Shown piece after piece: positions 12,547 to 15,920 of a DNA stretch of 46,666 nucleotides. Position numbers and translations under genes: made by a program. The stretch lies in UHGV virus genome UHGV-0105104. One strand, written 5' to 3'. The stretch comes from a virus. Every line of letters starts with the position of its first letter. The first letter of the stretch is position 1. The notes beneath the pieces are model-generated. The model worked only from the letters and a program-made list of their open reading frames with translations, was not told where the DNA came from and ran no database searches.

Positions 12547-12837
12547 ATGAAATGTGTCATTTTCGAGCTTGATGGCGTGCTGCGCGATGCGGAAGGAAAT
12601 GCTATTGCTGGTAACGTTGCGCTGGCTAAGTCGCTGTACTCTGCCGGTCACGACATCCTAATCATGAGGGCAAAGCATGCGTATGAGTGGCTGCATGCTA
12701 ACGATGTTTTCTATGATGACATCATGGCATCCCATCAGCAGATTGATGCAGAAAGGGTGGCGATTGCGGTCGTGTCTAATGACGTGATTTATGCCGCCAT
12801 GCGCAACGCGGGGATTCATTGCTGGCTTTATAAATAG
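12547..12837 (+). CDS. hypothetical protein with HAD-like N-terminal motif (FELDGVL)
   Basis: 96 aa; motif resembles HAD motif I but with Glu in place of the nucleophilic Asp, so no enzymatic call; followed by a hairpin at 12837-12852. Confidence 0.35.
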   Translation: MKCVIFELDGVLRDAEGNAIAGNVALAKSLYSAGHDILIMRAKHAYEWLHANDVFYDDIMASHQQIDAERVAIAVVSNDVIYAAMRNAGIHCWLYK

Positions 12838-12857: not shown

Positions 12858-15392
12858 TCATCTCCTGCTCCTTCTAATCCATCCAGAGCCACGCTGTACG
12901 ATGTGATCGTTGCATGCATATCTGATTGCGTCAATGAAGTGGTTCCACGCATCCACAATATTTGTGAGCACGTTACCCGTCAGCTTGTCCACCTTGTAAC
13001 TGTACATAGTGAACTCTTCCTGAGTCTGTGTGCAGCGGTCATGAATGATGATGCTGTCGCAACCCCTGAGCCAGGTTACACCCTCCTCCACGCTCCCGGG
13101 CCACTTATTGCATGGATGGATATCAAATCCTGCGCGTTTGATGTGACTGATTGTTTCTGGCCGAGAGCAGTCCCCATACCATCTTGCCTTCCTGGAGAGT
13201 GGGAATGATTGCTCCATCGCTGTAGGTGTGTCGGTAATCTCAAGGCCTACACGGCCGTATTCGCGCGCGACGTAAAGGTTGCGGCGGTCATCAGGAAGTT
13301 TCTCAATGTAAACCTCAACCATCGCCGTTGCGTCCTGCGAGAATCCAAAGTCGATGCCAAAGTAAGGCCCATGCCATTCCGGCTTAACCTCGAAATCAGC
13401 AACGCGCCACTTACCGCCAAATACCTGCTCATCATTACGCTTGTTAAAGCGACCGCCCCACACCCATTGATAGCGGTCGAAGTCGGTCTCTTTCATGCGT
13501 TGCATTTGGCTGGGTAGGGGAGTATCCCAGAACCACGGATTGTCTGAGTAATTACACTCGATAATCAGGTTTTCATCATCCTCATAGATGCCGCCATTTT
13601 CGCGCAATTTATTATAAAAAGGCTCAACCCATATTTTCCACGTCGGGTCATGCTCTTTATTTGGGTTGAAAGTCACCCATATCTCTGACCCTTCAGCGCG
13701 GACTGTTGGGGTGAGGATTTCCCAGCTTGTCTGGCTGACGTTTTCCGCCTCCTCGACCCAAGCTACTGTAATGCCAGCGAAGCCTTTAACGGTCGTCTGG
13801 TTGCGATACAGCCCCTTAAATCTGAATTTTGCCTTCGTGCCTTTGTGGGTTATCTCATTATTGATGACGCGAAACTCTTTCGTTTCTCCCTTGCGATCAA
13901 TTTCGTCCTTCAGTTCCTGATATGAGCTATCTTCAATGGACTGCTGAATCTCACGAAAACAAGCTATCCTGTCAGGCTTAAAGCGTGCACGCTCCGTAAG
14001 TATTGTTGTTACTGTCCTTGTTTTTCCGCTGTTGTGTGTAACCGTGCCATCAGCAAGCAAGAAAAGATGATCGCCATCAAGAGTGAACCCAGCGTATTCA
14101 CCATGCCCGGCATAAGACAATGACACCTCAGTCATCTTTCCTCGTGTTGACTTGGTTTTCTCTGCTATCTTTCTTTTTACTCGGCATGGGATTGTGTGAA
14201 GGTCCCCGCTAACGAACACCTCCCATACGTCCTTTTCGTATATTCTTTTCTCACCTTTATATTCAAAGGTGACATCAGTCTTTTTGATTATGCTTGACTT
14301 GAAGCCAAGCGATCTTGCCACATCCATCAAAGAGAAGGCCATTTCTTTATTTATTGATGTGAAAGAATAGCTTTTCTTTTTCTGGTCATAATGCGAATCA
14401 GTATCCAATAGCCCAGCCAGAATCTGAAGTCTTACCTCTCTGCTGTTTTTGATATAGCAGTCAGGTATGTGTTTATTATTAATCACCCCAAGCTGCTGCA
14501 TTTTAGTTAGTAACGGGTTGGTGTTCTTCCCCATGCCAGCAGCTCGACCATTAGTTATCGCATAGACAGGGCATCTATCATCGTCGCGAACCTTTACCTG
14601 CATCCCGTATTGTCTTGCCACGTTGTGAATGTAGTCAACTATCTCTGGATCAGGCGTGCACACTTCAACACCACGAGATGAACCATCACCTAACCATAAA
14701 CCAAGAAAGTACGGGTCAACTGGGACGCTTTGGTCATTAAAATCCCATCCTGTTCGCCACCCTTTAAAGACATGGCGGAACTTTTTGGAAGTTGCGCGCG
14801 ACAAATATTCTGAAACACCAATATTCAGTATTTCAGGTTCATTCGGGTAATAACGATAAATTCTTTTACCATCCGGTGTTTTTGTCTCGTCACTGATAGC
14901 AGATGGAATCTTTCGTAATGACAGTATGTGACTTGAGTTGACAGTGTAGTCATCAGCATATTTTTGATGAACCGTATACATGTCATCAAACCCCCGACAG
15001 ATGTTTAAAACATTTCGTGGTTTACTGTCTGGACCCATAACCTTATCGCCAACAACGATATCCTCTACGCGTTTTAGGCTACCATCAAACATCCTCACCA
15101 TCGTGCCGATGGCTAAGCATCCGCGCCCGCCAAACACAATCTTATTTCGCTTGGGGTAAAGTAGCTTTTCCAGCTTTTCTGGTATCAGGTGATCAACGCC
15201 AATATCAGAGTCGCTAACGTCATCAACTCCGCTTTGCGTCATTTTGAGTTTGCGAACAATCTGCTTATCTGTATTAACAACACCGAACACCGCAGATTCA
15301 GGCGCATCAATCACGCCATCGCCAATAATCTCTTCGAGTTTTTCAATTGCTGGTGCTGACAGTCTTTTGCGTGACATATATAGATTCCTCAT
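12858..15392 (-). CDS. terL: terminase large subunit interrupted by an in-frame intein
   Basis: Walker A is split as VFGGRG | intein | SGKTRT. Terminase nuclease/ATPase context downstream. Likely true start at ATG 15377 (GAGGA Shine-Dalgarno). 844 aa precursor, ~481 aa after splicing. Confidence 0.85.
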   Translation of the reverse strand: MRNLYMSRKRLSAPAIEKLEEIIGDGVIDAPESAVFGVVNTDKQIVRKLKMTQSGVDDVSDSDIGVDHLIPEKLEKLLYPKRNKIVFGGRGCLAIGTMVRMFDGSLKRVEDIVVGDKVMGPDSKPRNVLNICRGFDDMYTVHQKYADDYTVNSSHILSLRKIPSAISDETKTPDGKRIYRYYPNEPEILNIGVSEYLSRATSKKFRHVFKGWRTGWDFNDQSVPVDPYFLGLWLGDGSSRGVEVCTPDPEIVDYIHNVARQYGMQVKVRDDDRCPVYAITNGRAAGMGKNTNPLLTKMQQLGVINNKHIPDCYIKNSREVRLQILAGLLDTDSHYDQKKKSYSFTSINKEMAFSLMDVARSLGFKSSIIKKTDVTFEYKGEKRIYEKDVWEVFVSGDLHTIPCRVKRKIAEKTKSTRGKMTEVSLSYAGHGEYAGFTLDGDHLFLLADGTVTHNSGKTRTVTTILTERARFKPDRIACFREIQQSIEDSSYQELKDEIDRKGETKEFRVINNEITHKGTKAKFRFKGLYRNQTTVKGFAGITVAWVEEAENVSQTSWEILTPTVRAEGSEIWVTFNPNKEHDPTWKIWVEPFYNKLRENGGIYEDDENLIIECNYSDNPWFWDTPLPSQMQRMKETDFDRYQWVWGGRFNKRNDEQVFGGKWRVADFEVKPEWHGPYFGIDFGFSQDATAMVEVYIEKLPDDRRNLYVAREYGRVGLEITDTPTAMEQSFPLSRKARWYGDCSRPETISHIKRAGFDIHPCNKWPGSVEEGVTWLRGCDSIIIHDRCTQTQEEFTMYSYKVDKLTGNVLTNIVDAWNHFIDAIRYACNDHIVQRGSGWIRRSRR
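14031..15119 (-). mobile_element. intein with LAGLIDADG homing-endonuclease domain inserted in the TerL P-loop
   Basis: Begins with Cys (CLAIGTMV) directly after GGRG and ends THN followed by Ser (SGKT). Two LAGLIDADG motifs (YFLGLWLGDGSS and LQILAGLLDTDSHY). Removing the 363 codons restores GGRGSGKT. Confidence 0.8.
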
Positions 15393-15476
15393 CAGGGCAT
15401 CATTGAAGTGAATGCGGCAGGCGGTGATGAGTCGCTTTTCGGGTGCCCCCTAGCCGCATTAATTATTATAAATCAG

Positions 15477-15920
15477 TTACTGTTGCTGCTCCAGTAATTT
15501 CTCCAGTCGCTCAAGTCGAGCGGCGAGTTCGGTTAACTCTTTCACGTCAAGACCAACCTTAATCATAGACACAACCTGAGACGCAACATCAATGGGAAGC
15601 TCACCAAGCGAGACTGACTGAATGACATCTTCAATCTGCTGCACTGGTGTTGCACCCTTCTGATATTTGAACTCAACAGGAGGGGCCATTGTCTTCTGCA
15701 TTGGGCTAATGCGAAGAAATATTTCTTTCAGCATTTGCACGCCCTGAGTCGGGTTTTCCTCAGTCATCTTGATTGACGTCCTGATGAATGCGTCAAGGAA
15801 CTCCTCCTCACCAAGCCCACAACGCTTTAATGCTTCAATAAGCCTGTTTCTGTAGCTTAAACCTCTTCCTGCTGGCTGGTATTCAGCAGAAAACTTCATA
15901 ATCGGATTTGGATTTGCCAT
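15477..15920 (-). CDS. terS: terminase small subunit (putative)
   Basis: 147 aa ORF directly upstream of TerL with a C-terminal coiled coil; positional call. Confidence 0.45.
   Translation of the reverse strand: MANPNPIMKFSAEYQPAGRGLSYRNRLIEALKRCGLGEEEFLDAFIRTSIKMTEENPTQGVQMLKEIFLRISPMQKTMAPPVEFKYQKGATPVQQIEDVIQSVSLGELPIDVASQVVSMIKVGLDVKELTELAARLERLEKLLEQQQ

What the first reader, a model, noticed from the sequence alone, without database searches (positions are those of the whole stretch)
12858..15392. LAGLIDADG intein splits the terminase Walker-A loop
The TerL ORF reads ...VFGGRG / CLAIGTMV...(363 aa)...LLADGTVTHN / SGKTRT.... Excision restores GGRGSGKT exactly. The insert has the Cys1 and His-Asn terminal signatures followed by the +1 Ser, plus two LAGLIDADG motifs, so it is a complete and probably homing-competent intein. 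The packaging ATPase can only work after protein splicing.
Basis: partly seen in the sequence, partly recalled or inferred. Interest (0 to 1): 0.65.

Follow-up and report, generated by a model that had tools for sequence, protein, structure and literature searches.

The report
Homing intein inside phage terminase ATP-loop
The phage's only DNA-packaging motor gene is interrupted, exactly inside its ATP-binding loop, by a 363-residue self-splicing protein element with its own DNA-cutting domain; this is real and has moved between phage lineages, but it is one more example of a well-known kind of element.

Summary
ORF 12858-15392 on the minus strand is a large terminase (TerL) of the Terminase_3 / Sf6 gp2 type. 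A 363-aa insert (window 14031-15119) splits its Walker A loop: GGRG | C...HN | SGKT. Intein-free TerL from sister phages aligns with one clean 363-column gap.

The insert is a class-1 intein of the PI-SceI family, with Cys1, NxxH, His-Asn and Ser+1. It has two LAGLIDADG motifs with both catalytic Asp residues. The AlphaFold model (pLDDT 93.5) best matches PI-SceI.

The window is about 99.6% identical to Aeromonas phage pIS4-A and Vibrio phage pYD38-A. Those records call the gene only "terminase large subunit".

New here: the intein plus N-extein block is 95-99% identical in Salmonella phages whose TerL body is only about 80% identical. The endonuclease core has dN/dS of about 0.13. This indicates horizontal spread and retained function.

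No cleavable empty site was found. Every intein-free allele differs at 9-14 of the central 30 bp.

Relatives at 35-44% identity sit in the P-loops of many unrelated NTPases, mostly three codons downstream (GK^S/T).

Verdict: a new member of a known kind; moderate interest.

The parts
12858..15392 (-). TerL precursor ORF (844 aa from the first ATG; probable true start is ATG at 15377, giving 839 aa)
   Evidence: homologue annotations
15120..15392 (-). N-extein (91 aa, or 86 aa from the 15377 start), ending in the first half of Walker A, GGRG (15120-15131)
14031..15119 (-). Intein, 363 aa, PI-SceI family, class 1
14724..15119 (-). Intein residues 1-132: N-terminal Hint splicing region, with Cys1 (15117-15119) and block B N61-x-x-H64 (14928-14939), plus a short region in the place of the PI-SceI DNA-recognition insert (residues ~71-90, low pLDDT)
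14190..14723 (-). LAGLIDADG homing-endonuclease core (intein residues 133-310)
14679..14705 (-). LAGLIDADG motif 1, LGLWLGDGS; catalytic Asp145 aligns with PI-SceI D218
14394..14420 (-). LAGLIDADG motif 2, LAGLLDTDS; catalytic Asp241 aligns with PI-SceI D326; Ser242 replaces a Gly that is at least 90% conserved
14031..14189 (-). C-terminal Hint splicing region (intein 311-363), with block F DGDHLF and the terminal His362-Asn363 (14031-14036)
14019..14030 (-). Second half of Walker A, SGKT; the +1 Ser codon AGC (14028-14030) is the splice nucleophile
12858..14030 (-). C-extein (390 aa plus stop): the rest of the ATPase domain (Walker B region VAWVEEAE) and the RNase H-like nuclease domain
13990..15540 (-). 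Horizontally shared block (approximate borders), at least 91% identical to Salmonella phage Segz_1. It covers the last ~60 nt of the upstream ORF, the intergenic region, the N-extein, the intein and ~40-90 nt of the C-extein. Outside it, identity falls to ~55% upstream and ~80% downstream

Best explanation
A bifunctional class-1 intein of the PI-SceI family (Hint splicing domain plus a double-motif LAGLIDADG endonuclease) is inserted in frame between the 4th and 5th residues of the TerL Walker A loop (GGRG^SGKT).

Inferred mechanism. The precursor (about 839 aa) is translated whole. Cys1 starts an N-S acyl shift. Ser+1 attacks the resulting thioester. Asn363 cyclises, assisted by His362, and releases the intein. 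An O-N shift then joins the exteins into a 476-aa TerL with an intact P-loop. Only this spliced protein can bind ATP and package DNA.

The freed or embedded endonuclease cuts, or until recently cut, intein-less terL alleles at the Walker A coding sequence during co-infection. Repair from the intein-bearing allele copies the intein together with flanking extein DNA.

Shown here: the anatomy, family membership, fold, precise insertion point, absence of a second terL, horizontal transfer of the intein and flanks, and purifying selection.

Inferred: the splicing chemistry, the dependence of packaging on splicing, and endonuclease activity. I put present-day homing activity at about 0.5-0.6.
For: - Clean 363-aa gap against intein-free TerL, and contiguous alignment of the spliced extein to Sf6 gp2 (PDB 4IDH), including GGRGSGK.
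- Pfam Hom_end_hint, Hom_end and LAGLIDADG_3 all score above their gathering thresholds.
- phmmer to PI-SceI gives 1.5e-20, with D145/D241 aligned to D218/D326.
- In an 88-sequence family alignment, C1, H64, D145, H362 and N363 are invariant and N61 and D241 are at least 90% conserved. All are present here.
- AF2 model has pLDDT 93.5 and pTM 0.91. The top Foldseek hits are PI-SceI structures (E 2.5e-28, TM 0.76), followed by other intein endonucleases and I-DmoI.
- There is only one terL in the window. Near-identical genes occur in isolated, plaque-forming phages (pIS4-A, pYD38-A, KpV2811, Segz_1, ST44/46/65), so splicing must work in vivo.
- Mobility, window versus Segz_1: N-extein 98.4% nt, intein 94.7% (dS 0.19), C-extein body 80% (dS ~2.4). 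The block borders are mapped.
- The complementary pattern appears against intein-free KP591P1, which is at least 90% identical on both sides of the block but 50-65% inside it.
- The L024 intein is 6% diverged on a 99%-identical backbone.
- dN/dS is 0.11 for the intein and 0.13 for the LAGLIDADG core.
- All 17 copies are full length with every key residue.
Against: - No experiment was done; splicing and cleavage are inferred.
- Ser242 replaces a Gly that is at least 90% conserved directly after the second catalytic Asp, in all 17 copies. This could weaken or alter the endonuclease.
- No empty allele carrying the cognate site exists in the phage collection or IMG/VR. All intein-free alleles differ at 9-14 of the central 30 bp and use TCN rather than AGC for the +1 Ser. 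The element may therefore be fixed in its niche, at the late stage of the homing cycle.
- The N-extein is more conserved than the intein itself, which simple one-step co-conversion does not predict.
Confidence: 0.88

Rival explanations
1. The intein still splices, but its endonuclease is no longer an active homing enzyme. The element is fixed in the only TerL lineage that carries its site. It persists because imprecise loss would destroy the P-loop.
For: No cognate empty site was found anywhere. Ser242 sits at a Gly that is at least 90% conserved in LAGLIDADG motif 2. Every allele with the type-A N-extein carries the intein.
Against: The endonuclease core has dN/dS of 0.13-0.15 over dS ~0.2, with no deletions, stops or mini-intein derivatives in 17 copies. 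Three intein lineages are shuffled relative to their backbones. This argues for continuing exchange and selection on the domain.
Confidence: 0.35
2. The shared block spread by ordinary homologous or modular recombination between co-infecting phages. The break was not made by the intein's endonuclease, and the intein was a passenger of a terL 5' module.
For: The high-identity block extends at least 420 nt upstream (N-extein, intergenic region, end of the upstream ORF) but only ~40-90 nt downstream. The N-extein is more conserved than the intein. These phages are highly mosaic around terL.
Against: The downstream border falls within ~90 nt of the insertion point in two independent comparisons, as expected for a co-conversion tract anchored at the cut site. 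Asymmetric tracts are common in homing (general knowledge).
Confidence: 0.25
3. The intein is kept as a post-translational switch. Conditional splicing (for example redox- or temperature-sensitive, via Cys1 and internal cysteines) would time or gate packaging ATPase activity.
For: The P-loop position makes TerL activity strictly dependent on splicing. The literature proposes such roles for P-loop inteins (PMC4760082; PMC5050341).
Against: Nothing in the sequence requires it. Close relatives do well without the intein. The mycobacteriophage TerL inteins that have been tested spliced rapidly and constitutively (PMC5050341).
Confidence: 0.1
4. The insert is a non-splicing insertion or the gene is a dead terL (a pseudogene, a BIL-like domain, or an in-frame intron).
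For: None beyond the fact that splicing was not observed directly.
Against: - All splicing residues are present and conserved.
- The reading frame is intact in 17 copies.
- This is the only terL in a complete, viable phage genome.
- The exteins are under strong purifying selection (dN/dS 0.02-0.04).
- BIL domains lack an endonuclease and a +1 nucleophile requirement (general knowledge).
Confidence: 0.02

Closest known systems
PI-SceI (Saccharomyces cerevisiae VMA1 intein; PDB 1VDE, 1LWS, 1DFA)
   Same: - It belongs to the same Pfam families (Hom_end_hint PF05203, Hom_end PF05204).
- It is the best sequence match (E 1.5e-20) and the best structural match (TM 0.76).
- It has the same Cys1, NxxH, His-Asn and both catalytic Asp residues in LGLWxGDG / LAGLxDxD motifs.
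   Different: - The host protein is a V-ATPase A subunit, and the site is ...VG^CGER..., outside the Walker A loop. My initial recollection that it sat in the P-loop was wrong.
- PI-SceI has 454 aa, with a much larger DNA-recognition insert in the Hint domain, against 363 aa here.
- Its +1 residue is Cys rather than Ser.
- Identity is only ~23% over the structure.
Mycobacteriophage TerL P-loop inteins TerL1-a and TerL1-b (Kelley et al. 2016, PMC5050341)
   Same: These are inteins in the Walker A loop of a phage large terminase. For representatives, splicing and endonuclease activity against intein-less partner phages were shown experimentally. The authors also conclude that splicing is needed for the active site.
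   Different: - Those hosts are Terminase_1 (with one Terminase_6 site), and that paper found inteins in only those families. Here the host is Terminase_3 (Sf6 gp2 / PBSX type) in phages of Gram-negative enterics.
- TerL1-a sits between Lys and Thr. This intein sits three residues upstream, between Gly4 and Ser5.
Inteins of phage SF2 helicases (Salmonella Jerseyvirus 'intein containing helicase precursor', Klebsiella JD001, Pseudomonas Touem01, Vibrio PS65A.1)
   Same: These are the nearest relatives among isolated phages: 37-40% identity over the full length, the same architecture, also in a Walker A loop, and in phages of the same hosts.
   Different: The host protein is a helicase. The register is GxGK^T, the classic P-loop site, with Thr as the +1 residue.
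Metagenomic Terminase_3 inteins at GGRGSGK^S (P0006, P0023, P0025, P0027, P0048)
   Same: They share the same host family and the same Walker A loop. Identity is 36-41%. They share the unusual C-terminal D-G-T-V-(T/V)-H-N signature. They group with the window intein in an NJ tree.
   Different: The insertion point is three codons downstream. Bootstrap support for the grouping is only 45-56%.
P-loop inteins in the G^[S/T/C]GK[S/T] register (PhoH, an unnamed 'GSSG^SGKS' family, and some helicases)
   Same: They use the same register within Walker A as here, and they belong to the same intein family at 35-43% identity.
   Different: The host proteins are unrelated. They are not the sister group of the window intein in bootstrap trees.

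Membership tests
Class 1 intein (canonical Hint protein-splicing domain) | An in-frame insert whose removal restores a contiguous, conserved host protein | tested here: met
   One 363-column gap against KP591P1 and VLCpiS13c TerL. The spliced protein aligns contiguously to Sf6 gp2. The Terminase_3 profile match improves from positions 12-201 to 3-201.
Class 1 intein (canonical Hint protein-splicing domain) | N-terminal nucleophile (Cys/Ser at position 1) and a block B (T/N)xxH | tested here: met
   Cys1 and N61-S-S-H64 are present. C1 and H64 are invariant and N61 is at least 90% conserved in the 88-sequence alignment. They are present in all 17 copies.
Class 1 intein (canonical Hint protein-splicing domain) | C-terminal His-Asn followed by a Cys/Ser/Thr at +1 | tested here: met
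   ...VTHN|S is read from the DNA. H362 and N363 are invariant.
Class 1 intein (canonical Hint protein-splicing domain) | Hint fold | tested here: met
   AF2 pLDDT is 93.5. Foldseek gives full-length matches to PI-SceI, to the TliVMA and PhoVMA inteins and to PI-PfuI, and Hint-only matches to Prp8 inteins.
Class 1 intein (canonical Hint protein-splicing domain) | Actual protein splicing (ligated exteins plus free intein) | not testable with these tools
   This is only inferred: it is the sole terL in phages that have been isolated and propagated.
LAGLIDADG homing endonuclease (double-motif, monomeric) | Two LAGLIDADG motifs, each ending in a catalytic acidic residue | tested here: met
   D145 and D241 align to PI-SceI D218 and D326. 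D145 is invariant and D241 is at least 90% conserved.
LAGLIDADG homing endonuclease (double-motif, monomeric) | Full motif conservation, including the Gly after the catalytic Asp | tested here: inconclusive
   Motif 1 is GDG. Motif 2 is DTDS, where Ser242 stands in for a Gly found in at least 90% of relatives. The effect on activity is unknown.
LAGLIDADG homing endonuclease (double-motif, monomeric) | Endonuclease core fold (pseudo-dimeric alpha-beta-beta-alpha-beta-beta-alpha) | tested here: met
   The model matches the PI-SceI endonuclease domain and I-DmoI (E ~4e-06, target TM ~0.6).
LAGLIDADG homing endonuclease (double-motif, monomeric) | Site-specific cleavage of the intein-less allele | not testable with these tools
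No natural allele with the cognate empty site was found.
Mobile (homing) element | Sporadic distribution and intein divergence that does not match host-gene divergence | tested here: met
   The intein is in 11 of about 68 phage records with TerL at least 60% identical. Intein identity is 95% where the C-extein is 80%, and 94% where the C-extein is 99%.
Terminase_3 / PBSX-type large terminase (Sf6 gp2-like) | N-terminal ATPase with Walker A/B and a C-terminal RNase H-like nuclease | tested here: met
   PF04466 scores 1e-36 and PF17288 5e-14 on the spliced protein. TIGR01547 scores 143.6 bits against a cutoff of 105. Sf6 gp2 matches at 3.6e-41 and the SPP1 G2P nuclease at 3.4e-10.
'Classic' P-loop intein site (between Walker A Lys and Ser/Thr) | Insertion at GxxxxGK^[S/T] | tested here: not met
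   The insertion is at GGRG^SGKT, three residues upstream. Most relatives, including the other Terminase_3 inteins, use GK^[S/T].

The most novel reading that the evidence does not exclude
One intein lineage may have shifted its insertion point by three codons inside the same Walker A loop of Terminase_3 (GGRGSGK^S to GGRG^SGKT). This would be one step in a wider pattern: a single PI-SceI-like intein family uses the conserved P-loop coding sequence as a landing pad to hop between unrelated NTPases, including TerL, helicases, DnaB, thymidine kinase, PhoH, RecA and ABC ATPases. If so, this locus, with natural intein-bearing and intein-free sister phages of Klebsiella and Salmonella, would be a tractable system for watching endonuclease retargeting and extein switching.
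Probability: 0.3. Interest if true: 0.55.

Novelty: new member of a known kind. Interest (0 to 1): 0.3.

Why it matters
Practical consequences:
- The public records of these therapeutic-candidate Klebsiella and Salmonella phages (pIS4-A, pYD38-A, KpV2811, Segz_1, ST44/46/65) label an 839-aa precursor simply as 'terminase large subunit'.
- TerL trees, which are widely used to classify such phages, will be distorted unless the intein is removed.
- At least one helicase (JD001 gp48) appears to have been mislabelled as a terminase, probably through the shared intein.

Biological consequences:
- The locus extends TerL P-loop inteins from actinobacteriophage Terminase_1/6 to the Terminase_3 (Sf6 gp2) family in phages of enteric bacteria, at a non-classic register.
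- It gives a clean natural example of an intein plus flanking extein block crossing between phage genera.
- Intein-bearing and intein-free sister phages are available for direct homing and splicing experiments.

It does not change the current understanding of inteins.

Tried and rejected
- I expected the VMA1 PI-SceI intein to occupy the same Walker A register (GAFG^CGKT). The alignment to the full VMA1 chain 9cop_A shows ...VG^CGER..., outside the P-loop, so that parallel was dropped.
- I searched for an empty cognate homing site. blastn of the 150-nt spliced site against the phage collection found intein-free alleles at 72% identity or less. An exact degenerate pattern scan of IMG/VR found none. 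All 11 intein-free IMG/VR relatives with a recognisable Walker A differ at 9-14 of the central 30 bp. The 476-aa and 475-aa members of the same 90% protein cluster are the ordinary GGRGSSKT type, not empty sites.
- An NJ phylogeny tested whether the intein descends from the Terminase_3 GK^S inteins. The grouping was recovered, but bootstrap support was only 45-56%, so I report it as a lead only.
- The hairpin AATGCGGC...GCCGCATT in the conserved terS-terL spacer is not better than shuffles (z = -1.27).
- There is no match in complete E. coli genomes.
- Literature searches found no paper describing an intein in these phages or in Terminase_3.
- There is no second terL and no second intein copy in the window.
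Full report
**Observation**

The longest ORF overlapping the reported coordinates runs on the minus strand from 15392 to 12858 and has 844 aa. In-silico dissection gives three parts:
- a 91-aa N-terminal segment ending ...KIVFGGRG;
- a 363-aa insert, CLAIGTMV...LLADGTVTHN;
- a 390-aa C-terminal segment starting SGKTRT.

The DNA at both junctions was read directly. The insert occupies window 14031-15119 (-).

The likely true start is the ATG at 15377. It has GAGGA 8 nt upstream, and all homologues begin M-x-RKRL, so the precursor is probably 839 aa. Its coordinates are those of the whole gene, and the strand was left unstated.

**What the parts are**

Pfam places Terminase_3 and Terminase_3C on the flanks. 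It places Hom_end_hint, Hom_end and LAGLIDADG_3 on the insert, all above their gathering scores. NCBIfam calls the flanks a PBSX-family large terminase.

Joining the flanks improves the Terminase_3 match from profile positions 12-201 (1.4e-31) to 3-201 (1e-36). The joined protein aligns without a break to the solved Shigella phage Sf6 gp2 terminase (4IDH, E 3.6e-41), including an identical GGRGSGK P-loop. The insertion point corresponds to Sf6 G45^S46, counted by hand from the printed alignment.

Intein-free TerL proteins of 476 aa from Klebsiella phages KP591P1 and VLCpiS13c align to the precursor with a single clean 363-column gap between GGRG and S(S/G)KT.

**The insert is a PI-SceI-type intein**

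- phmmer against PDB sequences gives PI-SceI as the best hit (1.5e-20). The alignment covers the N-terminal splicing region, both LAGLIDADG motifs (D145 and D241 on PI-SceI D218 and D326) and the C-terminal ...DHxFLLA...V.HN.
- An 88-sequence alignment of the window intein with 87 relatives shows C1, H64, D145, H362 and N363 invariant. N61 and D241 are at least 90% conserved. The window has all of them.
- An AlphaFold2 model built on that alignment is confident (pLDDT 93.5, pTM 0.91).
- Its best structural matches are eleven PI-SceI chains (E down to 2.5e-28, TM 0.76). These are followed by archaeal VMA inteins, PI-PfuI, Prp8 inteins (Hint domain only) and I-DmoI (endonuclease only).

One departure was found. 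A Gly that is at least 90% conserved after the second catalytic Asp is Ser242 here, in all 17 copies examined.

I had expected PI-SceI to share the P-loop position. The alignment to full-length VMA1 shows it does not (…VG^CGER…).

**Where the sequence comes from and what is annotated**

The gene is 99.6% identical to Aeromonas phage pIS4-A and Vibrio phage pYD38-A (genus Roufvirus). It is 97.6% identical to Klebsiella virus KpV2811. It is 89.5% identical over positions 1-2457 to Salmonella phages Segz_1 and ST44/46/65.

All these records call the gene only 'terminase large subunit'. I found no paper in the held library that mentions an intein in these phages or in Terminase_3. The identical 839-aa protein (from the ATG at 15377) occurs on four public contigs.

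Only 11 phage records carry this intein, out of about 68 with TerL N-terminal regions at least 60% identical. No second terL exists in the window.

**Evidence for mobility**

*Window versus Segz_1 and ST46* (phages of different genera):

| Segment | nt identity | dS | Source |
|---|---|---|---|
| N-extein | 98.4-99.2% | 0-0.05 | |
| Intein | 94.7-94.9% | 0.18-0.19 | |
| First 150 nt of C-extein | 91-92% | 0.45-0.51 | |
| Rest of C-extein | 78% (about 80% over the whole C-extein) | about 2.3-2.4, saturated | |

A sliding-window comparison with Segz_1 bounds the shared block at roughly window 15540 to 13990. Identity is about 55% upstream of it.

*Window versus intein-free KP591P1.* The pattern is complementary. 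Identity is at least 90% on both sides but only 50-65% across the upstream ORF, the N-extein and the first ~70-90 nt of the C-extein.

*Locus L024.* This IMG/VR locus has a C-extein 99% identical to loci L016 and L017, but an intein only 93.7% identical to theirs.

The intein-containing segment is therefore exchanged independently of the terL backbone. The downstream border lies close to the insertion point, as a co-conversion tract would.

dN/dS is 0.11 for the intein and 0.13-0.15 for the LAGLIDADG core. All 17 copies are 363 aa with no stops and with every key residue. This argues that the endonuclease domain is still under selection.

**Limits on 'homing-competent'**

Every intein-free allele seen differs strongly at the site:
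- The +1/+2 codons are AGC GGA in all intein-bearing alleles, but TCA/TCG followed by TCG/TCT or GGN in all intein-free alleles.
- In total, 9-14 of the central 30 bp differ.
- No empty cognate site was found by blastn or by a degenerate exact scan of IMG/VR.

The known intein-free population is therefore probably not a substrate. The intein may be fixed in the allele class that carries its site. Ordinary recombination of a terL 5' module remains a partial alternative to endonuclease-driven transfer.

**The wider family**

A search of 5.8 billion proteins found 267 relatives (E ≤ 1e-10), at 32-45% identity over the full length among those listed apart from two near-identical fragments. Parsing their junctions shows that almost all sit in Walker A loops of unrelated P-loop NTPases. 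These include DnaB, thymidine kinase, PhoH, AAA_24, ABC ATPases, RecA, RuvB, dTMP kinase, SF2 helicases and Terminase_3.

Two registers occur:
- Most use GxxxxGK^[S/T].
- A minority use GxxG^[S/T/C]GK[S/T], the register found here. These are PhoH, an unnamed GSSG^SGKS family and some helicases.

The nearest relatives in isolated phages are helicase inteins of Jerseyvirus, JD001, Touem01 and PS65A.1 (37-40% identity), all at GK^T.

Other Terminase_3 proteins carry a related intein at GGRGSGK^S, three codons downstream of the window's site. They share a D-G-T-V-(T/V)-H-N C-terminus with it. An NJ tree makes them its sister group, but with only 45-56% bootstrap support. A site shift within one P-loop is therefore a lead, not a result.

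**Comparison with the literature**

- TerL is the commonest intein host in mycobacteriophages. Two sites lie in the Walker A loop (TerL1-a is between Lys and Thr). Representative inteins were shown to splice and to cleave intein-less partner alleles. In that survey only Terminase_1 and Terminase_6 carried inteins (PMC5050341).
- Enrichment of inteins in P-loops across bacteria and archaea is established, and terminases are noted as common phage targets (PMC4760082).
- Near-identical inteins in divergent exteins, and 'extein switching' through shared nucleotide-binding motifs, have been described for actinobacteriophages (bioRxiv 10.1101/2025.01.02.630785).

The present element fits all these patterns. 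What is new is its host family (Terminase_3, Sf6 gp2-like), its host range (phages of Klebsiella and Salmonella, plus records deposited under Aeromonas and Vibrio hosts), its non-classic register, and the fact that it is unannotated.

**Verdict**

The element is a complete class-1, PI-SceI-family intein with a LAGLIDADG endonuclease that splits the TerL Walker A loop. Packaging must depend on protein splicing; this is inferred, with high confidence.

Past horizontal spread together with flanking extein sequence is shown. Present endonuclease activity is plausible but unproven. I rate it a new member of a known kind, of moderate interest.

Noticed in passing
window ~15120-15540 (- strand): N-extein, terS-terL spacer and the last ~60 nt of the upstream ORF: This stretch is 98-100% identical among all intein-bearing phages. 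That is more conserved than the intein itself (dS 0-0.07 against 0.19), yet it is only ~50-60% identical to intein-free alleles. It could reflect a later sweep, a pac or initiation site, or a constraint on the 5' mRNA. It remains unexplained.
   Followed up: partly
window 14025-14030 and the same position in loci L001, L003, L011, L012, L014-L038: The +1 Ser codon is AGC in every intein-bearing allele and TCA/TCG in every intein-free allele. Intein-free Klebsiella-type alleles also read GGRGSSKT, a non-canonical Ser before the Walker A Lys, instead of GGRGSGKT.
   Followed up: partly
L024 (IMGVR_UViG_3300045988_069625) against L016 and L017: The C-extein is 99% identical, but the intein is only 93.7% identical, with 25 aa changes from the window intein. 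The intein allele appears to have been replaced on an otherwise unchanged backbone.
   Followed up: partly
L004:2393-5089 (Klebsiella phage JD001 gp48, RefSeq NC_020204): RefSeq labels this protein 'terminase large subunit'. Its extein is an SF2 helicase (ResIII plus Helicase_C), and GenBank calls it a helicase. The name was probably transferred through the shared intein.
   Followed up: yes
L007:2393-5524 (Vibrio phage PS65A.1, annotated 'hypothetical protein'): This helicase carries the P-loop intein and also what looks like a second, small intein-like insert (…QDE|CFPAGTLITM…VVVHN|CHH…) near the DExH box.
   Followed up: no
L005:1-1803 (Salmonella phage vB-SeS-01): This Jerseyvirus has annotated inteins in both its DNA polymerase and its helicase, which are separated only by two small ORFs.
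   Followed up: no
window 15377 versus 15392: The longest ORF starts at 15392. The ATG at 15377 has a GAGGA Shine-Dalgarno 8 nt upstream and matches the annotated start of all homologues.
   Followed up: yes
L001:2592-2747, L003:2583-2738, L011:2592-2747: Three intein-free sister phages (KP591P1, VLCpiS13c, GP-1) have an extra 51-aa ORF overlapping the terL start. No such ORF is annotated in the intein-bearing phages, which have a ~100-nt spacer instead.
   Followed up: no
window 12547-12837 (+ strand): A 96-aa ORF converges on the terL stop and matches phrog_415 'polynucleotide kinase' over only part of the profile (positions 21-164 of 218). It is conserved at the same position in relatives.
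   Followed up: no
window 15411-15460 (- strand): There is an 8-bp inverted repeat, AATGCGGC…GCCGCATT, in the terS-terL spacer. The predicted fold is not better than shuffled sequence (z = -1.27).
   Followed up: yes
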